Source: Hydrurus foetidus
Taxonomy: Eukaryota
Direction: 5' to 3'
DNA: 64,000 bases
Assembly: GCA_900617105.1 (NCBI GenBank)
Contig: UYFQ01000001.1
Location: forward strand, 4,588,001-4,652,000
In this document: piece by piece, positions 46,746-58,429 of the stretch
How positions within the stretch are numbered: the stretch's first letter is position 1
How the letters are laid out: every line of letters starts with the position of its first letter
Made by a program: the position numbers and the translations under genes
Notes under the pieces: generated by a model
Seen by the model: only the letters and a program-made list of their open reading frames with translations
What the model was told of the DNA's origin: nothing
The model's database searches: none

Positions 46746-49268
46746 GTGCCGTCCAACTACTCTGACCACTACAAGCTAGCCCTGCAAGCGCGGAATCTGT
46801 TTACAGATCGCGCCTGCGAGGTTTTGCCCGTCATTGGCAAGGCTATTTCAGACTGTCTTACGGATCTAGTCAACAAGCCCGGCAGTGCCAGAGATATGCA
46901 ATACCACCGGGACGCTCAACTGGCGTTTCAGGCGGGGGGTGCTAGCTGGCGAACCGGCTTGCTGTCGGTGTGGCGAACACCAGATTCGACAGCCTCCAGT
47001 TCGGGATCAGCGCAATTTGGTCTTGAAACTACTCTCTTTGAGCTGGTTAATAACGACGTGATGGACGATCAAATCCTCGCGTCGAGGCTGGCCTTGCGGC
47101 TGCTGGATTTTGCTAGCTGGGAGCTCAACGATTTGCGCTTGCGCATTCAGCACCTGGAGCAAGTTGCTGAGCTGCCCAAAAAAGACATTTTGCGGCCTGA
47201 AATTCTGGCCCGTCTGGTTATTGAGCAATGGGTAGCGGCGAAGCTGCCGCGCCCAACCTGGGCGTTGGTACAAGACTTGGTGCAAACGCTGCTGGCCGAG
47301 CACTTGCTCGTGGCGTACCACGCAGCCAATGAGTTTTTGGTATTGAACGGCGTGATGGCTGAAATCGATTTGCGGCCTCTTGTCAAGCGCTCGCTGTCGT
47401 CGCCCACCGACAAAGTCGATGCGCTAAAACTGTCCGTAGCTGGTCGGCCAAATGGTTCAGGTTCAGGTTCAAGTTCAAGTTCAAGTTCAAGTTCAAGTTC
47501 AAGCAGGCAAGCCATGGGCGCGAGCGCGGGTTCCAATAACCGCGGTGGCGCATCGTACGGCGCGGGTAACGGCGCGCCGGGCGGCAGCCTGATACGGCGT
47601 GTAGGCGGAGGAAGTTTTTCAAACAGCGACTCCGGCGGCGACTCCAACAGCGATAGGGGCGCGCGCGCAAGCTATGGTGGAAATCGGCCAAGGCAAGGCG
47701 ATTCCATGGGTCATTCGCAGCAAGGTAGTCCGCAGGAAGAAACCCGGATGCAGACTGCGACCACGCCACTGGCGCGAGCCCGCATGCGTGCCCAAGGGGT
47801 GATGGGCACCCTAAAACGGTTGCTCACCAATCAGGTTGCTGGATTTCACGATACACGAGCCTCGCGACCTTCGCATCAGTTGGTTCAAGCCATGAACGGC
47901 GCCGCAAGGTCAAGTTCAAGCGGCTCCAGCCAGACGCTTCAAATGGATGCGCCTGGCCAGTTTTATGGTTCGGTTCACGTTGAGCAGGCTGCCAGTGCCA
48001 TGCGCCAGCGCACGGCTGAGCTTAAAAAAGCCGCCACCAGCTCAAGTGAAAAAGCAACTATTGAAATTGTTGCGTTGATGTTTCAGGCCATCTTGGCGGA
48101 AGATCGCATTCCTGCGGCAATTCGCGTGTGGTTTGCGCGGCTCCAAATGCCAGTGCTGCGTTTGGCGCTATCAGAGCCCGAGTTTTTTGGCTCGCTTGAG
48201 CACCCGGCTCGCCAACTGATTGACCGCATGGGGTCTTGCGTGCTCGGCTTTAACGCCGACATATCGGGCGGCGCGCTTGAAGTTGAGGTCAAGCGTGTGG
48301 TGCAAGTGATCGAGCAGTACCCTGAAACCGGCAGGCGCGTGTTTCAGCTGGTGTATGACGAGTTTCAAAAATTTCTGTCCAAGTTTTTAAGTGAAACCGG
48401 CGGCGCTGCGCGTGCTGTGTCTGTCGCGCAGCAAATGGAACAAAAAGAAACGATGGCGATTCAGTTCACCATCGAGATGCGGAACATGCTCAAAGACATT
48501 CCGGTGCGCGACGAGATTCGGGAATTTTTGTACAAAGTATGGGCCGAGGCGCTGGCTATTTCTGCCATGCGCAGTGGTCCGCAACATGAAGAAACGCTGG
48601 TGTTAAAGCGTGCCTCGGCTGACTTGGTGTGGGCCTCCAGCGCCAAGCCCAATCGTGCAGACCGTGCAAAAGTAATTGCAGATTTACCCAAACTGCTGCA
48701 ATTGTTGCGCTCTGGTATGACCATGCTGGGACTGGACGCAGCCGCTCAAGACGAGCACATCAAAATCATCAGCGACACGCTGGCAGATGCTTTTTTAAGT
48801 AAAAACAGTGCGATTGACCCAGCGCGCATTGATCTAATGGCCAAGCGCCTGGTGAATTTGGAGGACTACCTGTCTGACGAAGACATCGGCGACTTGCCGC
48901 TGGACACCGACGCGTTGGTGATGATGTTGGGCATTGATACCACCGACATAGAGGTGATTTCTGACGGTGGCAGCCAGCCAAGTGACGCCATGCGTGCCTG
49001 GGCGGGCGAGCTGCAGTTGGGTGCGTGGTTCAGCCTGGACCATAACGGTCGCGTGGCACACGTGCAGTTTGCGTGGCGCAGTGACCGCAAGCAACTTCAC
49101 CTTTTTGCTTCAAGTGAAGGTAAAAATTACTTGATTCAGGCGCGGCGACTGGCGGCGTATCTGCAGGCGGGCCTGCTGGTGCCGACAGAAGAAGAAGCAT
49201 TGACCGTTCGCGCCACCCGCGAGGCACTGGTCAAACTTGAGGCTAACCCAGAGCGGCTATTGGGCTAG
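46746..49268 (+). CDS. DUF1631-like protein with Gly/Ser-rich insertion
   Basis: ARLQMPVLRLAL...FF....HPARQLIDR helical core and a C-terminal LGAWF...LHLF domain. Family assigned from memory of the motif. Confidence 0.7.
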   Translation: MPSNYSDHYKLALQARNLFTDRACEVLPVIGKAISDCLTDLVNKPGSARDMQYHRDAQLAFQAGGASWRTGLLSVWRTPDSTASSSGSAQFGLETTLFELVNNDVMDDQILASRLALRLLDFASWELNDLRLRIQHLEQVAELPKKDILRPEILARLVIEQWVAAKLPRPTWALVQDLVQTLLAEHLLVAYHAANEFLVLNGVMAEIDLRPLVKRSLSSPTDKVDALKLSVAGRPNGSGSGSSSSSSSSSSSSRQAMGASAGSNNRGGASYGAGNGAPGGSLIRRVGGGSFSNSDSGGDSNSDRGARASYGGNRPRQGDSMGHSQQGSPQEETRMQTATTPLARARMRAQGVMGTLKRLLTNQVAGFHDTRASRPSHQLVQAMNGAARSSSSGSSQTLQMDAPGQFYGSVHVEQAASAMRQRTAELKKAATSSSEKATIEIVALMFQAILAEDRIPAAIRVWFARLQMPVLRLALSEPEFFGSLEHPARQLIDRMGSCVLGFNADISGGALEVEVKRVVQVIEQYPETGRRVFQLVYDEFQKFLSKFLSETGGAARAVSVAQQMEQKETMAIQFTIEMRNMLKDIPVRDEIREFLYKVWAEALAISAMRSGPQHEETLVLKRASADLVWASSAKPNRADRAKVIADLPKLLQLLRSGMTMLGLDAAAQDEHIKIISDTLADAFLSKNSAIDPARIDLMAKRLVNLEDYLSDEDIGDLPLDTDALVMMLGIDTTDIEVISDGGSQPSDAMRAWAGELQLGAWFSLDHNGRVAHVQFAWRSDRKQLHLFASSEGKNYLIQARRLAAYLQAGLLVPTEEEALTVRATREALVKLEANPERLLG
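47454..47501 (+). repeat. hexanucleotide microsatellite (GGTTCA)3(AGTTCA)5
   Basis: Direct reading. Encodes GSGSGS followed by poly-Ser. Confidence 0.95.
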
Positions 49269-51196: not shown

Positions 51197-52498
51197 TTAT
51201 GCACTCACTGACGCTGCGGCGTATTTTCGCCACTGCTGCGGCACCAGCTCAAACAAGGGTGTCGGTTCACGCTTGAGGTTTTGCTTAACGCTGCCTTTAT
51301 CGACAGTCGGTGTGTTGCCGCTCAAGTCGACTTGCGCAAGCTGCTGCATCCAGACCAGGTCGATTTGCCCGTTGGGTGCTGGCCGTGAAAAGATCAGTTC
51401 CAACATTTTTTTTGCCGGAACGCTCCCCTGATTTTGCGCCAGTTGATACAAGCGGATAGCCTCGGTGTAATTAGAAGGCACGCCTTGGCCCCGGTGGTAA
51501 CGCTGCGCCTGCGCGAAGTTGTCTGCAGCCGATTGCGGTTTGACCGCAACTGCGCTTGCGCTGCGACTTGGGGGCGGCAGCCGCGCTGCATTTTTAACGC
51601 GCTCGGCCACTACTGTGGAATTGATGGCTGCAGCGGCAGACTTGGGCGCTGCGCTTTTGAAAAAAACAAGTGCTTCGGGCAACTCGTTTAAAAACACGCT
51701 GTCCAAGCCCAGCTCAATTTTTGCATTGGTATCTCCCTGCTGCGCCGCCCTGGCAAGTAACTGCCGATTTTGCAATGGCGAGGGCGCCTGGCCTGCTGCG
51801 CTGAGTACGGGTTGTGTAGTCTCAAGCGGCGCCAGGCGTGACTGCATTAGCCACTGCAAGTACAGCGCACGCGGCGCATCGACACTGCGCAGCAGCTCTA
51901 CCCACTTGCCCGCAGCGGCAGGGTTAGCGGTCGCTTTGCAGCCTTCAATTTCACACCATGCCAAACCGGCTGGCGCTAGCGGTTCACCGAGCAACTGCGC
52001 CCGTTCAAACCACACAGCCGCATCAGATGTGTTCAGAACTGAGCAAATGCCGTGCAGTGTCAGCAAACCCATTTGCCAGGCCGCATTGGCTTGCAAGCGC
52101 TGTTGGCGGGCTTTTGAAAGTTGTTGATGTTCAGGCAACACCGTGCCGGAAGCGGAGGCCTTCAGTCGCTCCAGTTGATTCGCTGCGCTAAATTCGTTCG
52201 GATTTGCCCGCCTGAGCGGATCTGGCGCGCAGGTGGATGTGCCCATATCAGGCGGCGCAAGCCCGTACGTACTTCTAAGCGCCAATGGAGATATTTCCAC
52301 AGCCTGCGCGCGGGTTCTGCGACTATTCGCGACCCCAGCCGACGGCTGAATTTGAATGGGCGCAACCGAATAGTCTGGCGTTTGCAATGGTGCGGCCGGC
52401 AGGCTGCGCGCGTTGGCCTGCACGGCTGGCGCACACAGTGAAAGCACGACAGTCGATGTAGCGGCTAGTACCAAACAATTGAGTTGATGGAAGTGCAT
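51197..52498 (-). CDS. secreted Sel1-like repeat protein
   Basis: Signal peptide (...APAVQA) and Sel1-like units such as AAVWFERAQLLG, AAQQGDTNAKIELG, YHRGQGVPSNYTEAIRLYQLAQNQG. Confidence 0.8.
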   Translation of the reverse strand: MHFHQLNCLVLAATSTVVLSLCAPAVQANARSLPAAPLQTPDYSVAPIQIQPSAGVANSRRTRAQAVEISPLALRSTYGLAPPDMGTSTCAPDPLRRANPNEFSAANQLERLKASASGTVLPEHQQLSKARQQRLQANAAWQMGLLTLHGICSVLNTSDAAVWFERAQLLGEPLAPAGLAWCEIEGCKATANPAAAGKWVELLRSVDAPRALYLQWLMQSRLAPLETTQPVLSAAGQAPSPLQNRQLLARAAQQGDTNAKIELGLDSVFLNELPEALVFFKSAAPKSAAAAINSTVVAERVKNAARLPPPSRSASAVAVKPQSAADNFAQAQRYHRGQGVPSNYTEAIRLYQLAQNQGSVPAKKMLELIFSRPAPNGQIDLVWMQQLAQVDLSGNTPTVDKGSVKQNLKREPTPLFELVPQQWRKYAAASVSA

Positions 52499-52583: not shown

Positions 52584-54353
52584 CTATTTAGCGGGTGCTC
52601 CCGGCGGCGGGATCGCGCCGGTGGGTGCTGCCGGTTTAGGCCCCACCAACCATTGAATCTGTGAGCTTGTATAGGCTTGTTTGCCCACTGCCGAGTCAAA
52701 CGCCTGATCAACGGTTGCCAAACCTGACACCCCTTTGAGGGTGACCAACGCTGTGCCGCCCAAAATCGCGGGGATCTTGTCTGCCACGTCCGTATCTGTA
52801 GCGTAGCACCCTACACGTTCAGTACCGGGACTGGTGGCGTCCATGATGAAGCCTGGCGTGGGGCTCATCCAGTCCGGGATGCGAATAGCGTTGTTGGCTG
52901 AAATGAGCGCACTGGGGTTAGTGGCGTTGGGTAGCAGCCGCATGACGGTACCCCCCGCTTCATGCAAAAAGCAGTACATATAAGACGCCCGAGACAACGC
53001 GGCAGACAAGAAGATCTGCTCGCCCACTTCAAACGCAGGCCTGCCCACCAGTGGGTTTTCCAGTTGCAGCTCTAAACGCCTCGGAAGCGCTGGTGCCCCC
53101 AAGGCGGCTTTAAGGTACGGGCTGCCCGGCACGGCTCTTGTACCGGCGATTGGTGCCATCGTTGACGTGCCATCTGCAACACCGATAGCGCTGCCCCCAG
53201 CTGACCAGCCGACTTGTAACAACTGCCCATTGGCGTTCAGCGATACAAAATCGCGCAGCGCACGCTCATAGGTTGCAAAGTCAACAATGCCCGTCACCGC
53301 CAAACCTGAATCAGCCTGAAACTTGCCCAACGCAGTGACTAACTCTGGGCTGCGCTCGTCAATAGTTTTGCCGTCATTGGCCAAATACCCTTGGCTGACC
53401 ATTGAGCGCTGCACCAGTTTGTTGTGCACCAGTGGCGAGCCTTCGTCAAACCAGTCACGCATCTGCCGCTGGAAATCTGGATGCGTTTGCTCCAGCGTCA
53501 GGCATTGCCAGTACGGTACACGCGCCCATTTTCCGACCATTTCAATCATGCCCAAATCAATCAACGTACGCAGCGCACCGCCTGCGCCGATAGAGTAGTC
53601 TCGGCCCACATTAAACTTCACCCCGTAATCGCCGATTCGGCCCGCCAAGTCCAATCCTTGTCCCGAGCCGCCAATGATGACTTCATTGGCAGAGTCCAGG
53701 CCAGGGATCAGTGTGCGGGTGCGAAAGTCCCCCAAGTGCAGCTCTAACCCAATCACAGTGGCATTTTTGCTTTGGCTGTAGCCCGTGTCCAACCTGCTGG
53801 CCGATGTGCCCACATCAAAGCGGTTGTTGATCACATTTTGGTCAACATAAGCAATGGCACCCGACACGTAAAGCGCCGGGCGCTGCAATTGCATCTGGTT
53901 GTTGTTGAGCAAAATCGTGGTCAGGTTTTGCACCGTGTCTTGCCGCGCAATATCGACCTCGTAGTCAACGTACCTGAATGCGTGGCTGAGTCGGGACATC
54001 TGCGACAGCGCGGTGATGATCATGTCTTTGGCAGCGGCGGGCACCTTGCTCGAAAAGTCGGGTATCGATTTGCTCGTGATCAGCGTGGTGGGCAGTTGCG
54101 ACTCACGCAGCATGCGGTCCATGCACATCAGCGATTCAGAAAAACTCGACAGCGAGCGGGTCGGCCGAACAACCGGGCGATTCGTTGCGTAAGCGTAGGA
54201 CTGAAACTCCGCGTCTTTACGCGGGTTCATGGGCATCGCGCAACCCGATAAAAACAGCACCACCAGCATCGCCATGCAAACCCAAAAAGACGGTATGCGC
54301 CCCAACTGCCTTTGAAGAGCGGTTGAATGCGTGGTCAGTGTGTTGTTTCTCAT
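52584..54353 (-). CDS. lipoprotein: CsgG/HfaB-like domain + peptidoglycan-binding domain + DUF4384-like domain
   Basis: LSGC lipobox. ITSKSIPDFSSK, KDMIITALSQ, SGAIAYVD and IGLELHLGD resemble the CsgG/HfaB pattern. ALGKFQADSGLAVTGIVD fits PG_binding_1. FEVGEQI...YMYCF...LLPN is DUF4384-like. Confidence 0.65.
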   Translation of the reverse strand: MRNNTLTTHSTALQRQLGRIPSFWVCMAMLVVLFLSGCAMPMNPRKDAEFQSYAYATNRPVVRPTRSLSSFSESLMCMDRMLRESQLPTTLITSKSIPDFSSKVPAAAKDMIITALSQMSRLSHAFRYVDYEVDIARQDTVQNLTTILLNNNQMQLQRPALYVSGAIAYVDQNVINNRFDVGTSASRLDTGYSQSKNATVIGLELHLGDFRTRTLIPGLDSANEVIIGGSGQGLDLAGRIGDYGVKFNVGRDYSIGAGGALRTLIDLGMIEMVGKWARVPYWQCLTLEQTHPDFQRQMRDWFDEGSPLVHNKLVQRSMVSQGYLANDGKTIDERSPELVTALGKFQADSGLAVTGIVDFATYERALRDFVSLNANGQLLQVGWSAGGSAIGVADGTSTMAPIAGTRAVPGSPYLKAALGAPALPRRLELQLENPLVGRPAFEVGEQIFLSAALSRASYMYCFLHEAGGTVMRLLPNATNPSALISANNAIRIPDWMSPTPGFIMDATSPGTERVGCYATDTDVADKIPAILGGTALVTLKGVSGLATVDQAFDSAVGKQAYTSSQIQWLVGPKPAAPTGAIPPPGAPAK

Positions 54354-54426: not shown

Positions 54427-54849
54427 TTAATTGCAGATGTTGACCAGGTCGCCTCTGAGCACTACAACTTGCGGCGCCATCTTGAACCCTGCGCCGGGAC
54501 GTATGCCGGGGGCAACACTCACGCTTCCAATTGATTGAGTGCAGACCGTAGACGACGCATTGGTGTTGACTGAATTGATGACATCTTTTTCGGTCAGGAT
54601 GTCGCCTTTATTGCCTGAGAAGGCTTTGGCCTCATAGCGCGAAATCCGGGCTTTTTGCCACTCAGGTATGTCCGCCGTCGGGTTGATGTAGCCCGAGCGA
54701 GGCGCGGTGCCGAACGGCTGGCCTTGAATAACAACTTTGGAAGCGATGCGAACCGGATCTTCGCCGGGGGCATTTTGGGCCGCGGCAAGTGTGCTGACCA
54801 GCACAGTGCACAAACCAAGCACACGGAAAGAGTAGCAGCGTAGCAACAT
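54427..54849 (-). CDS. small secreted hypothetical protein (140 aa)
   Basis: GGAG RBS, ATG 54849, signal peptide ending LAAA. Mature C-terminus VCTQSIGSV...QVVVLRGDLVNICN. Confidence 0.75.
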   Translation of the reverse strand: MLLRCYSFRVLGLCTVLVSTLAAAQNAPGEDPVRIASKVVIQGQPFGTAPRSGYINPTADIPEWQKARISRYEAKAFSGNKGDILTEKDVINSVNTNASSTVCTQSIGSVSVAPGIRPGAGFKMAPQVVVLRGDLVNICN

Positions 54850-54865
54850 GATGGGTCTCCACAAG

Positions 54866-54921
54866 AAAAACAAAAAAAGAGTCAGGCCACTTTGCACGTG
54901 TCAAAGCGAGCTGACCCTTTT
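54866..54921 (-). terminator. intra-operonic rho-independent terminator after the repeat-protein gene
   Basis: Minus strand GGGTCAGCTCGCTTTG-acacgtg-CAAAGTGGCCTGACTC (15 of 16 pairs including G-U) followed by TTTTTTTGTTTTT. Confidence 0.8.
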
Positions 54922-54943: not shown

Positions 54944-55666
54944 TCAATGACGAGGGGCGTTGCATCCAGGGCATGGGTCTTGTGGTTCATTGCAAGCATC
55001 GTTAGATGCAATGTTTTGAATCGCATGGCTGCGATAGCCCTTCGCCAAATTGGTGATCGAGCCGCCTGTGACGTAGGTGGTTTGGGTAGAAGTACCGGCC
55101 ACCGTCACATCGCCAAAGTTGGACGAAAGATTTTGCGTGGCACGCGCATGGCTGCCAGACGCAGTGTTAGACACAGTAACGTCTGTCAGGCCCACCGTTT
55201 GCGCCGACGTGCCACTGATTCGGATGCCATCGCCGTTATTGCTGGCCAGGTTTTGCAGCGCAGTCGCGTCGCCGCCAGTGGCCTTGTTGTTTAAAGTTGA
55301 ATTGGTCATGCCGGTGTATTGCGTTGACTCACCGCTCATGCTCACTGTGACCCTGCCAGCGTTGGACGAGACGTTCTGATTTGCAAAATCGTCCTTGCTG
55401 ACCGATTCGTTGTTCATTGCGCCGCCGTTTGCCACAGTTGTTTGACTCGAAATGCCGTTAACGGTGATCTTGCCCGCGTTACTTGAAACGTTTTGCATAG
55501 CAGTGTTGTTTGCATTTGACTGATTTGACACTGTCAGATTGGTAAACGAAGCAAGCTGCGTTGACGTGGCACCAGACGCAATGACGATTTTGGCTGGGCT
55601 AACGGGACCAGCAGCCATGGCTGCGGCGGCAAATGCGCTGAGCGCGAAGAATGCAAGTTTTTTCAT
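54944..55666 (-). CDS. secreted five-repeat Q/N/S/T-rich protein with C-terminal CxxC (candidate functional amyloid / beta-solenoid subunit)
   Basis: Start MKKLAFFALSAFAAAAMA at 55666. Five ~39-42-aa repeats each ending AxQN(V/L/I)(S/A)SN. Tail ACNEPQDPCPGC. Confidence 0.8.
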   Translation of the reverse strand: MKKLAFFALSAFAAAAMAAGPVSPAKIVIASGATSTQLASFTNLTVSNQSNANNTAMQNVSSNAGKITVNGISSQTTVANGGAMNNESVSKDDFANQNVSSNAGRVTVSMSGESTQYTGMTNSTLNNKATGGDATALQNLASNNGDGIRISGTSAQTVGLTDVTVSNTASGSHARATQNLSSNFGDVTVAGTSTQTTYVTGGSITNLAKGYRSHAIQNIASNDACNEPQDPCPGCNAPRH

Positions 55667-56206
55667 GGTGAGTACCCCAAAAACAAAGTTAAAAATTTGC
55701 TTTAGGTTCCAAGGCTCCTGCAGGGGTCTTTGAACCGTCAGCGCTGTAGACATTGGTTGAGTGGGCCCCCTTTTTTGATAGGGCTTCGCTTTTTCTTTGT
55801 CTGGGACGAAGTTTGTGCCTGTGTTTGCGCGCCGCCAATCCCCGTTTCGGGCTACCCTTTTGATGCGGGGTTTTTGCAAAATTCGCTTGTGTCTGAATGC
55901 GTATTTTGCTCAGCAGAAAGAGCCGTGCCTGGCGGCTAAATTCGATCGAAAATCTCGCAATTTATCGCGGTAGTTTCAAAATATTAATTTTGTAAAGTTT
56001 TGTGTCTGGTGTGCGCTACCGCACACCTTTATTCGTCCATTCGGGGTACAAACAACGCAAGTCGGCACAAATCGACGTGACTTGTCACATCGATTGCAGA
56101 GGCAGGCAGCAAACAACCACTTTTGATTGTTGGTTTTTGCGTCTGCAATGGTGTTTTGTGTATCCACAAAATACGCGCTCATGTTGGATATTTCGGAGAA
56201 GAAAAC

Positions 56207-57034
56207 ATGCTCAGTACGTACACCACAACCGACGAAGCTTCGGTAACAAGTAAAGCTCGCGCCAATCAGGCCGCGGCGATGCCTCCCATGGGCCAGCAAA
56301 TGGAATCACTGCATCAAACATCGTTAACCCCGCGTAACGGGGCGACTTTGTCATGGCCACCGTTTTTGGTGGGGCAGGAAGCCAGGCCCGTACGCGTAGT
56401 GCTGATTGACGACGACGCCAACATTCGCCACGTGATTTCAAGCGAATTAATGGCTGATTTGCGCTGCAACCTGGTAGGCCAAGGGGGCAGCATGCGTGAA
56501 GGCCGCCGGCTAATTTCGAACGGTGAGTTTGATGTGATGTTGGTAGATTTGAATTTGGGCGATGGCAATGGCTTCGAACTGATTGAGCACCTCAAGACGG
56601 TCCGGCCAATGGCTGAGGCGATTGTTATTTCGGCGATGGAAGACGAGCAACATGCACTTCGCGCGTTTGAACTGGGCGCTACCGGGTACCTGGTTAAAAA
56701 CTCGTGGTTTGGTAATTTTTCACAAGCCGTGTTGCAGGTGGTCAATGGTGGCGCGTCCATCACGCCCAACCTGGCCCGGCGCTTGTTGCACAGGCTAGAC
56801 CACAGCCACGCGGATACAGGTCAGCACGACGCCGCCCCAAAAAAAGGGCTGTCAGAGCGCGAACACGCCGTGCTAAAAATGGTGGCAGCGGGCTACACCA
56901 GCTGCGAGATCGCTCTGCGCCTGGCCATCAGCGGCCTGACAGTCAATACCCACATCAAAAACATTTACCGCAAACTGCAAGTGAAAACTCGGGCGCATGC
57001 GGTCAGCTCGGCACTGCAACGTGGGCTGCTTTAG
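56207..57034 (+). CDS. NarL/FixJ-type response regulator (REC + LuxR HTH)
   Basis: VVLIDDD, DVMLVDLNLGDGNG, GATGYLVK, LSEREHAVL...TVNTHIKNIYRKL. GGAG RBS before ATG 56207. Confidence 0.92.
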   Translation: MLSTYTTTDEASVTSKARANQAAAMPPMGQQMESLHQTSLTPRNGATLSWPPFLVGQEARPVRVVLIDDDANIRHVISSELMADLRCNLVGQGGSMREGRRLISNGEFDVMLVDLNLGDGNGFELIEHLKTVRPMAEAIVISAMEDEQHALRAFELGATGYLVKNSWFGNFSQAVLQVVNGGASITPNLARRLLHRLDHSHADTGQHDAAPKKGLSEREHAVLKMVAAGYTSCEIALRLAISGLTVNTHIKNIYRKLQVKTRAHAVSSALQRGLL

Positions 57035-57046
57035 CCGAGTGAATCC

Positions 57047-58429
57047 ATGGTCGTAGCGATTGAGCTCTTTTTTGCTCTGGCCAGCTTGTTGCTGGGCGCT
57101 GCCGCGTTAAAGGGCTCTATTGGCGCTTGGCGCCTACAGAGTCACCCGGTCGACTACGCCATGCGGATTTTGGCGTGCTTGTGGATGCTCTATGTGCTGG
57201 TCTCGGTGGTGCAGCTGTTTTTGGCAGGCAACTCACGGATTGATTTATCGCTGTTGGAAGTGGCTGCCGATATTGTCTATGCAGTTTTATTGGGCGCGGT
57301 GGCATTTTTCCTGGTAACCACATCTGGCAGCGTGCGACCCTGGGTGTTGTTTATCGCTGCGCTGCAGGTGCTCGGTGAAATCGGGGCCGCCATTTGGCTT
57401 AACTTTGGTGAAGCGTCGACGCCGATTGCGTTTTGGATGTGGACGGCGTTGAATTTAACTGGCGCAACCGCGGTGACGGGCTCGATCATTCGGCAGGTTC
57501 GCCACACCCACAGTCGACGCAGCTGGCTGGCGCTGGCTGCTTGCGCCATGGGACTCGGTTTGTGGCTGTACGAAGCTGCCGTGCCAGACAATTCGCACAG
57601 TGGGCTGCCCGTTGCATCGCACCTGTACGCCTTGTTTTTATTCGTGATCTGGAAGCTGGTGTCACTCAGTCCTGATGCAGACCGCGCGCTGGCAAGCGCC
57701 GGGACACTACCGGTGGGGACGTCTGCCTTTCAAAGTTTGAACAGCGTCAGCACAGACGATGACTTCATTGCGCTGGCACTGCGCGCCGAGCGCCAGCGAA
57801 TAGCCTATGAGTTGCACGACAACATCGGCTCGCAGTTAGTCAGCGTTTTGTTTTCGATGCAGGCTGCTGAACAACCGCAAAAGCGGTTGGTCATGCTGTC
57901 GCTGGAGCAATGCCTGGCTGATCTAAAAATGACAGTAGATGCTTTAGACAGCTTCACTGAAAACGTCACGCAAGCGCTCGGTCGGTTGCGCTACCGGGTT
58001 CAACCCGCGCTTGACAGGCAACGCACCCAAATGCGCTGGGATGTTGAAATTTCTGCTGAACTGGAGGCCGTTCATGGCGTGTATGCGCAGCAGGTATTGC
58101 GTATTGCGCAGGAGAGTATTTCTAATGTTATGCGCCATGCCAAAGCAAGTTCTGTAAGGGTCACTTGCCGCTTTGAGCGGGAGTTCAGTCACCTGCTGCT
58201 AGAGGTGAGCGACAACGGCGCAGGTATGGCGCCGGGGAAAAACAAGCGCTCGGCCGGGCGCGGAATAGAGGGCATGAAAAGACGGGCTGCGGCTGTGGGC
58301 GGCTTTCTGCGTATTTCAAACCCAAGCGGCGGCGGGACTTGTGTGCGCTTAACGCTGCCGCTGGCGCATGTCAAAGTGTGGCCAGAAAGCGCTTTGCCAA
58401 CGGAAGTAAAAGAAACCGCCGCCGCCTGA
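57047..58429 (+). CDS. membrane-bound sensor histidine kinase (HisKA_3 type)
   Basis: About 6-7 hydrophobic segments, ERQRIAYELHDNIG H-box, QESISNVMRHA, DNGAG, GRGIEGM. Confidence 0.92.
   Translation: MVVAIELFFALASLLLGAAALKGSIGAWRLQSHPVDYAMRILACLWMLYVLVSVVQLFLAGNSRIDLSLLEVAADIVYAVLLGAVAFFLVTTSGSVRPWVLFIAALQVLGEIGAAIWLNFGEASTPIAFWMWTALNLTGATAVTGSIIRQVRHTHSRRSWLALAACAMGLGLWLYEAAVPDNSHSGLPVASHLYALFLFVIWKLVSLSPDADRALASAGTLPVGTSAFQSLNSVSTDDDFIALALRAERQRIAYELHDNIGSQLVSVLFSMQAAEQPQKRLVMLSLEQCLADLKMTVDALDSFTENVTQALGRLRYRVQPALDRQRTQMRWDVEISAELEAVHGVYAQQVLRIAQESISNVMRHAKASSVRVTCRFEREFSHLLLEVSDNGAGMAPGKNKRSAGRGIEGMKRRAAAVGGFLRISNPSGGGTCVRLTLPLAHVKVWPESALPTEVKETAAA

What the first reader, a model, noticed from the sequence alone, without database searches (positions are those of the whole stretch)
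54944..55666. Secreted protein of five ~40-aa repeats with an invariant Q/N ladder and terminal CxxC
Seen after the signal peptide: R1 KIVIASGATSTQLASFTNLTVSNQSNANNTAMQNVSSNAG; R2 KITVNGISSQTTVANGGAMNNESVSKDDFANQNVSSNAG; R3 RVTVSMSGESTQYTGMTNSTLNNKATGGDATALQNLASNNG; R4 DGIRISGTSAQTVGLTDVTVSNTASGSHARATQNLSSNFG; R5 DVTVAGTSTQTTYVTGGSITNLAKGYRSHAIQNIASND; then ACNEPQDPCPGCNAPRH. Conserved positions are SxQ, a mid-repeat N and AxQNxxSN. The repeats contain no Pro and few charges. Known: CsgA has five imperfect repeats with conserved S/Q/N, and FapC has ~37-39-aa repeats and a C-terminal CxxC. Inference: a beta-solenoid, amyloid-forming major subunit with a repeat consensus unlike either. An alternative is a Thr-rich beta-solenoid such as an ice-binding or adhesive protein.
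Basis: partly seen in the sequence, partly recalled or inferred. Interest (0 to 1): 0.85.

Follow-up and report, generated by a model that had tools for sequence, protein, structure and literature searches.

The report
Subunit of undescribed curli-like fibre
This gene encodes a signal-peptide-bearing protein of five 40-residue repeats that heads a conserved gene set with a predicted relative of the curli export pore, so it is likely the building block of an undescribed bacterial surface fibre.

Summary
In detail: 55666-54944 (-) encodes a 240-aa protein with a signal peptide and five Q/N/S repeats spaced 39-41 residues. AlphaFold2 gives an all-beta repeat core, four strands per repeat, with no folded cap. 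It matches no Pfam or NCBIfam family and lacks the curlin and Fap motifs. The gene heads a conserved set: a small secreted partner, a lipoprotein whose model matches CsgG best (Foldseek E 1.9e-5; VIA Z 12.1) and which adds peptidoglycan-binding and DUF4384 domains, and a Sel1 protein, beside a NarL-type two-component pair. The lipoprotein follows the subunit in 53 of 54 assessable loci. The same core recurs in other classes of the phylum. One correction: the CxxC is not conserved (12 of 54). Best reading: the major subunit of an undescribed CsgG-exported, amyloid-like surface fibre (0.65). Polymerisation, export and expression are untested. Nine literature searches listed no description. This scan noted the same system before on other genomes.

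The parts
54944..55666 (-). Repeat subunit gene (P0001, 240 aa); likely major fibre subunit
   Evidence: no family match
55613..55666 (-). Sec-type signal peptide, about residues 1-18 (read from the sequence, no predictor run)
   Evidence: same start and N-terminus in homologues
55472..55591 (-). Repeat 1, residues 26-65
55355..55471 (-). Repeat 2, residues 66-104
55232..55354 (-). Repeat 3, residues 105-145
55112..55231 (-). Repeat 4, residues 146-185
54995..55111 (-). Repeat 5, residues 186-224
54947..54994 (-). Cys tail, residues 225-240 (C225, C232, C235); low-confidence in the model
54865..54917 (-). Terminator-like hairpin with U tract right after the subunit gene
   Evidence: -27.2 kcal/mol, z -3.4; 23 of 51 loci vs 2.6 expected; not listed by the simple scan
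54427..54849 (-). Small secreted partner (P0002, 140 aa): helix plus C-terminal two-Cys segment; candidate nucleator or adaptor
   Evidence: (677 homologues among 7994 scored)
52584..54353 (-). Lipoprotein (P0003, 589 aa; lipobox Cys38): predicted CsgG/HfaB-fold domain, PG_binding_1 (314-363), DUF4384 (441-521)
   Evidence: (HfaB model in 27 of 42 members, best E 1.4e-7, far below cut-off)
51197..52498 (-). Sel1-repeat protein (P0004, 433 aa)
   Evidence: 49 of 50 loci
55810..55855 (-). Conserved gapless non-coding element about 145-190 nt upstream of the subunit start; probably promoter plus regulator site
   Evidence: 37 of 50 loci vs 0.8 in shuffles, pattern derived from the same data; no Rfam match
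56204..57034 (+). NarL/LuxR-type response regulator, divergent from the subunit
   Evidence: regulator plus kinase in 47 of 51 loci
57047..58429 (+). HisKA_3 sensor histidine kinase

Best explanation
The protein is likely the major subunit of an undescribed surface fibre, predicted to be exported through the CsgG-fold lipoprotein encoded two genes downstream. Step 1 (sequence): it carries a signal peptide and five in-register Q/N/S repeats. Step 2 (predicted): each repeat folds as four strands, probably one layer, with no folded cap at either end. Step 3 (inferred from curli): it would cross the periplasm unfolded and pass the outer membrane through an oligomeric ring of the lipoprotein, whose extra domain would hold the peptidoglycan. 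Step 4 (inferred): monomers would stack end to end into a cross-beta, amyloid-like filament, with the small partner as nucleator or adaptor at the pore. Step 5 (inferred): the tail cysteines may cross-link subunits. Step 6 (inferred): the divergent two-component pair would switch the set on, and the hairpin after the first gene would keep the subunit in excess.
For: Model pLDDT 85; residues 26-219 are 20 strands and no helix. The five-rung CsgA fibril aligns 99-107 of its 111 residues across the whole five-repeat core (Z 5.2-6.1), which fits one repeat per layer. Repeat number varies, 3-10 in complete genome loci and 2 in about 98-aa relatives with no cap or Cys; such modules would be unstable as monomers (inference; PMC10192328 passages say uncapped solenoids polymerise). 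The lipoprotein's best match is CsgG by two methods. Gene order is conserved: lipoprotein 53 of 54, partner 51 of 54 by tblastn plus 2 by HMM, Sel1 49 of 50. In 301 family genomes all 27 with the subunit (E<1e-8) have the lipoprotein (E<1e-100), and 27 of 28 with such a lipoprotein have the subunit. The core order recurs in 6 of 7 genomes from other classes and 6 of 7 metagenome loci, about four of them independent. No curlin repeat was found in 5 of 5 carrier genomes, so curli subunits are not the cargo there. The subunit diverges faster than the lipoprotein (50% vs 70% mean identity, 22 loci).
Against: No experiment and no expression data. No solved structure matches the subunit well: best Foldseek hit FapC at E 0.035, TM 0.13; best VIA Z 8.3, within the background range. 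The lipoprotein model is moderate (pLDDT 65, the probable membrane hairpin regions under 50), and the fold is shared with lipoproteins such as PelC, LptE, HpaA and TraT at Z 8.6-9.5. Pfam CsgG hits none of 42 members. No CsgE or CsgF match was seen in the locus. The most distant lipoprotein relatives lack an adjacent repeat gene (L188, L191), and one subunit locus lacks the downstream genes (L055). The partner's likeness to a repeat is clear only in the distant clade (5 of 6 related sequences); here it is weak (2 of 51; hhalign probability 5%).
Confidence: 0.65

Rival explanations
1. Holdfast-anchor-like complex: subunit and partner are exported by the lipoprotein but form short, SDS-resistant surface oligomers that tether a polysaccharide or another adhesin, like Caulobacter HfaA/HfaD with HfaB, rather than long fibres.
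For: The only curated model hitting the lipoprotein's N-terminal domain is HfaB (27 of 42 members, best E 1.4e-7). The Atlas gave an HfaD cluster as a weak lead (score 0.82). HfaA is amyloid-like and depends on HfaB (PMC6707917 passages). The peptidoglycan-binding domain fits a load-bearing anchor.
Against: No HfaA or HfaD model among the listed NCBIfam matches of 55 members. The HfaB score is far below its cut-off. No polysaccharide genes among the window neighbours that were annotated; other loci were not screened for them. The terminator after the subunit gene suggests a large excess of subunit.
Confidence: 0.2
2. Envelope scaffold: the lipoprotein ring is not a channel for the subunit; the repeat proteins fold in the periplasm or at the outer membrane as parts of a wall-linked structure.
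For: The CsgG fold is shared with lipoproteins such as PelC, LptE and TraT. Distant loci add OmpA-family and caspase-like genes. Two lipoprotein relatives have no adjacent repeat gene.
Against: CsgG itself ranks first by a margin. The repeat composition is that of known extracellular functional amyloids (PMC12822426 passages).
Confidence: 0.08
3. Monomeric beta-helical adhesin or ice-binding protein.
For: Thr/Ser-rich (28.9%). Antifreeze protein 3p4g and beta-helical adhesins appear among the fold matches (Z about 7). The nearest relatives are labelled Polaromonas.
Against: No Thr-x-Thr ladder (1, 0, 0, 0, 2 per repeat). Those Z values are background for solenoids. The family is also in Comamonas, Ottowia, Diaphorobacter, Pasteurellaceae and Lysobacteraceae. 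No folded cap, and two-repeat members exist.
Confidence: 0.07

Closest known systems
Curli, type VIII secretion (CsgA/CsgB subunits, CsgG pore with CsgE/CsgF, regulator CsgD)
   Same: Secreted Q/N-ladder repeat subunit with variable repeat number and no cap; lipoprotein with a predicted CsgG fold in the same locus; divergent LuxR-family regulator (the csgD arrangement is recalled).
   Different: Repeat about 40 aa with four predicted strands, against 23 +/- 5 aa with two (PMC10192328). No QX10Q or curlin motif in P0001. The pore is fused to PG_binding_1 and DUF4384. No CsgE/F match; a two-Cys partner, a Sel1 protein and a kinase instead; Cys tail.
Fap amyloid of Pseudomonas (FapC/FapB, FapF)
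   Same: Repeat length 35-40 aa, conserved Asn/Gln, one repeat per cross-beta layer (PMC12392863). FapC is the top but non-significant Foldseek hit.
   Different: No minimal Fap motif in P0001, and none of 54 homologues has two. No long linkers, repeat number not fixed at three, and the neighbouring exporter is CsgG-like rather than FapF. The CxxC likeness is not conserved.
Caulobacter holdfast anchor HfaA-HfaB-HfaD
   Same: CsgG-like lipoprotein with small amyloid-like secreted proteins (PMC6707917); weak HfaB match.
   Different: No HfaA or HfaD match listed; extra domains on the lipoprotein; no holdfast polysaccharide genes seen beside it in the window.

Membership tests
Curli (CsgA/CsgB) | Curlin repeat of about 23 aa with QX10Q kernel (PF07012) | tested here: not met
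   Period 39-41. No QX10Q in P0001; 0 of 54 homologues with three or more. No Pfam hit listed.
Curli (CsgA/CsgB) | CsgG-fold outer-membrane lipoprotein in the locus | tested here: met
   Predicted fold: Foldseek E 1.9e-5; VIA Z 12.1, rmsd 7.0, 154 aligned. Lipobox in the sequence. Pfam CsgG not hit.
Curli (CsgA/CsgB) | CsgE and CsgF helpers | tested here: not met
   No such match for the adjacent genes.
Curli (CsgA/CsgB) | Cross-beta fibres on the cell surface | not testable with these tools
   Needs ThT, fibre diffraction and EM.
Fap (FapC/FapB) | Minimal Fap repeat G-X4-N-X3-G-X6-N (PMC3792158) | tested here: not met
   0 in P0001; 6 of 54 homologues with one, 0 with two.
Fap (FapC/FapB) | fapABCDEF operon with the FapF exporter | tested here: not met
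   Neighbours are the partner, the CsgG-fold lipoprotein and Sel1.
Fap (FapC/FapB) | Greek-key layer geometry | tested here: inconclusive
Fap (FapC/FapB) | C-terminal CxxC (a recalled feature of FapC; the term had 0 hits in the three papers searched) | tested here: inconclusive
   Present in P0001, but in only 12 of 54 homologues.
Holdfast anchor Hfa | HfaB equivalog | tested here: not met
   P0003 scores 11.6 bits against a cut-off of 300; family best E 1.4e-7.
Holdfast anchor Hfa | HfaA/HfaD subunits | tested here: not met
   Not among the listed matches of 55 members (25 of 28 families shown). Atlas HfaD lead 0.82 only.
Holdfast anchor Hfa | Tethers a polysaccharide adhesin | not testable with these tools
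   Needs mutants.
Thr-ladder ice-binding beta-helix | In-register Thr-x-Thr face | tested here: not met

The most novel reading that the evidence does not exclude
This is a third major class of secreted functional amyloid in Gram-negative bacteria, beside curli and Fap. It has FapC-sized four-strand layers of a new sequence family, exported by a peptidoglycan-binding CsgG relative with a single adaptor-nucleator, is spread patchily across several classes of Pseudomonadota, and has clade-specific repeat motifs.
Probability: 0.5. Interest if true: 0.85.

Novelty: new variant of a known kind. Interest (0 to 1): 0.72.

Why it matters
Curli and Fap are the model secreted bacterial amyloids, and a recent survey found them in about 4.2% of GTDB species (PMC12822426 passage). 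This system would add a new subunit family and a differently built CsgG-type pore, present in 27 of 301 sampled genomes of this family. It gives named, culturable strains (for example Diaphorobacter nitroreducens, Comamonas granuli and Ottowia thiooxydans) in which to test what builds biofilm or floc fibres in bacteria without curlin genes. It also offers natural 2- to 10-repeat subunits and a new pore scaffold for structural work.

Tried and rejected
Family scans of the subunit found nothing significant: Pfam and NCBIfam on P0001 and 55 members and a PDB profile search (best E 0.17). PDB sequence searches with the lipoprotein did not find CsgG; only the fold searches did. FapC was not among the 50 VIA rows shown, which does not exclude a related geometry. 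Complex prediction of subunit with partner was not available, so there is no verdict on binding, and no homo-oligomer model was made. RNA: no RNA holder was listed, and two RNA runs laid 0 reads, which is no test. A sigma-54 reading of the upstream element was rejected (1 of 50 vs 3.5 in shuffles), and Rfam gave no match. The idea that the partner is a permuted repeat passed only in the distant clade (hhalign negative). Plasmids: no match for the subunit, two Azospirillum records for the lipoprotein. The NpdA S-layer paper had 0 hits for CsgG, Sel1 or lipoprotein. No whole genome is held for the window, so genome-wide tests used relatives (G001 is 81% complete). Literature searches listed no description of this gene set; most subscription journals are not covered and no supplements were read.

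Full report
Observation. Window 55666-54944 (-) encodes a 240-aa protein, P0001. An upstream in-frame TTG gives a longer ORF, but homologues begin at the same MKK start. After a signal peptide come five repeats ending in QN[VLI][SA]SN at residues 58, 97, 138, 178 and 217. None of 100,000 shuffles had more than two such motifs. The repeat region has no Pro, 8.6% charged residues and 18.8% N+Q. A protein 100% identical over the matched residues lies in L003, a contig labelled Polaromonas, which places the window in that group.

The family. A word-indexed search gave 56 homologues among 2792 candidates; a profile search of all 50% representatives gave 174. Among 54 proteins (53 from genome loci plus P0001; L003 and the two cut at the C-terminus were left out) the repeat count runs from 2 to 10, with 29 having five. 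L055 and L057 are cut at the N-terminus, so complete ones have 3-10. Over 266 repeats the A two before QN is 99% conserved; Q and the final N are fixed by the search pattern. Relatives of about 98 aa have two repeats and no cysteine; named ones are from Pasteurellaceae and Lysobacteraceae. The tail CxxC is not conserved: 12 of 54 have it, 53 of 54 have a Cys three residues after the last repeat motif, and 46 of 54 have an odd number of cysteines in the mature part. An odd count leaves a thiol free for cross-links (inference). No curated family matches.

Fold. AlphaFold2 with 55 sequences gives pLDDT 85 and pTM 0.79, with 20 strands between residues 26 and 219 and no helix; the leader and the Cys tail are low-confidence. 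No solved structure is close. Foldseek ranks FapC first at E 0.035, TM 0.13. VIA's best is a phage tail solenoid, Z 8.3, rmsd 1.6, 100 aligned. The five-rung CsgA fibril aligns 99-107 of 111 residues over the whole core at Z 5.2-6.1, rmsd 8-9. About half of each repeat aligning to one rung suggests one repeat per layer with a larger cross-section. This is an inference; I could not inspect coordinates.

Neighbourhood. Downstream on the same strand lie a 140-aa secreted protein (P0002), a 589-aa lipoprotein (P0003) and a Sel1 protein; a NarL-type regulator and a HisKA_3 kinase are divergent. In 56 genome loci, all named within Burkholderiaceae/Comamonadaceae or as unclassified Proteobacteria, the order is kept. 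Counting loci long enough to tell: lipoprotein 53 of 54, partner 51 of 54 by tblastn (two more by HMM), Sel1 49 of 50, regulator plus kinase 47 of 51. L055 has the subunit alone. In 301 family genomes, 28 matched the subunit; I dropped one weak hit (G161, E 4.5e-4). All remaining 27 have the lipoprotein at E<1e-100, and the 28th such lipoprotein lies at a contig end. Kin are not independent, so this is conservation, not a statistic.

The lipoprotein. It has a lipobox, PG_binding_1 and DUF4384. Its N-terminal domain weakly matches HfaB in 27 of 42 members and not Pfam CsgG. Its model (pLDDT 65) matches CsgG first by Foldseek (E 1.9e-5) and by VIA (Z 12.1, rmsd 7.0, 154 aligned; next 10.1). Other lipoproteins share the fold, so channel function is inferred. 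Five carrier genomes had no curlin repeat (0 of 5; the E. coli control was positive), though 3 of 5 have separate CsgG-family genes elsewhere.

Wider range. The two-repeat profile hit 13 of 401 phylum genomes, 7 of them in other classes, but only 2 of 400 in a class-wide sample, so the range is patchy. In 6 of those 7 genomes one or two repeat genes, a partner-like gene and the same lipoprotein (E about 1e-92 to 1e-101) lie in order; one row was partly cut from view and the seventh ends at a contig edge. Six of 7 metagenome loci show the same order; two pairs look like duplicates. Of 14 family genomes with only a distant lipoprotein I fetched 12. Eleven have an N/Q/S/T/G/V-rich, apparently secreted repeat ORF just upstream, judged by eye and only weakly or not at all matching my profiles; one has none. 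Caspase-like, OmpA-family, DUF2807 and ECF sigma genes accompany those loci. An Azospirillum relative has DUF4399 genes upstream instead, so the outer family is not confined to repeat cargo.

The partner. P0002 has 677 homologues among 7994 scored, two invariant cysteines and no family. Its tail reads like a permuted repeat. This held in the distant clade (mean 10.3 vs 1.6 bits for shuffles; 5 of 6 related sequences above all their shuffles) but was weak here (3.3 vs 1.4; 2 of 51), and hhalign found no relation. A nucleator or adaptor role is therefore a hypothesis.

Expression signals. A hairpin with a U tract follows the subunit gene (z -3.4). By my criterion such a site occurs in 23 of 51 loci against 2.6 expected, compared with 9 of 51 after the partner and 2 of 47 after the lipoprotein. 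A fixed-spacing element lies upstream in 37 of 50 loci against 0.8 in shuffles; the pattern was drawn from the same data, but 36 of the 37 begin between -149 and -192. It is likely a promoter with a regulator site (inference).

Mechanism and comparison. It works like curli: a signal peptide, a CsgG-fold lipoprotein, and an uncapped Q/N solenoid that would stack end to end. It is not a member of the curli, Fap or Hfa subunit families, since their defining motifs or models were tested and not met. Papers were seen as passages only: PMC12822426, PMC6707917, PMC12392863, PMC10192328, PMC3792158 and PMC10765051; other papers as search listings. No supplements were read, and these may hold tables of orphan CsgG homologues. 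Nine searches listed no description; DUF4384 appears in 7 papers, none with a title or abstract start on this system. Earlier notes of this scan describe the same or related sets in other genomes; they are unchecked and are not counted as support.

Verdict. A real, conserved and apparently undescribed system. Fibre subunit 0.65, anchor 0.2, envelope scaffold 0.08, monomeric adhesin or ice binder 0.07. New variant of a known kind; interest 0.72.

Noticed in passing
L140-L145, L054, L190, L123-L128: Many loci carry two repeat genes in tandem; in L140-L145, L054 and L190 the first has a different last-strand motif, recalling a minor/major (CsgB/CsgA-like) pair. The window's clade has only one.
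   Followed up: partly
L177-L186 (upstream of the distant lipoprotein): A further family of about 190-aa secreted proteins with about 42-aa repeats, plus a shorter type in L179, lies beside caspase-like, OmpA, DUF2807 and ECF sigma genes; no Pfam match for those tested.
   Followed up: partly
L126:8653-9452, L131:2634-3002, L048:7833-8546, L055: Extra or orphan copies of the repeat gene, away from or after the lipoprotein gene.
   Followed up: no
P0138, P0331, P0426: Two- and three-repeat relatives are named from Actinobacillus succinogenes, Aggregatibacter aphrophilus and Rodentibacter; their gene neighbourhoods were not seen.
   Followed up: no
L019-L031, L043, L045, L050 subunits; P0007-P0013: Many members with five or more repeats have a two-Cys loop inserted within a middle repeat, a possible exposed disulfide knob.
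   Followed up: no
window 46746-49268 (+): DUF1631 protein with a long Ser/Gly run and a weak PacR-family match; not part of the conserved set.
   Followed up: no
L007, L011, L012, L029: The regulator-kinase pair is moved downstream or inverted but stays with the set, which supports a functional link.
   Followed up: partly
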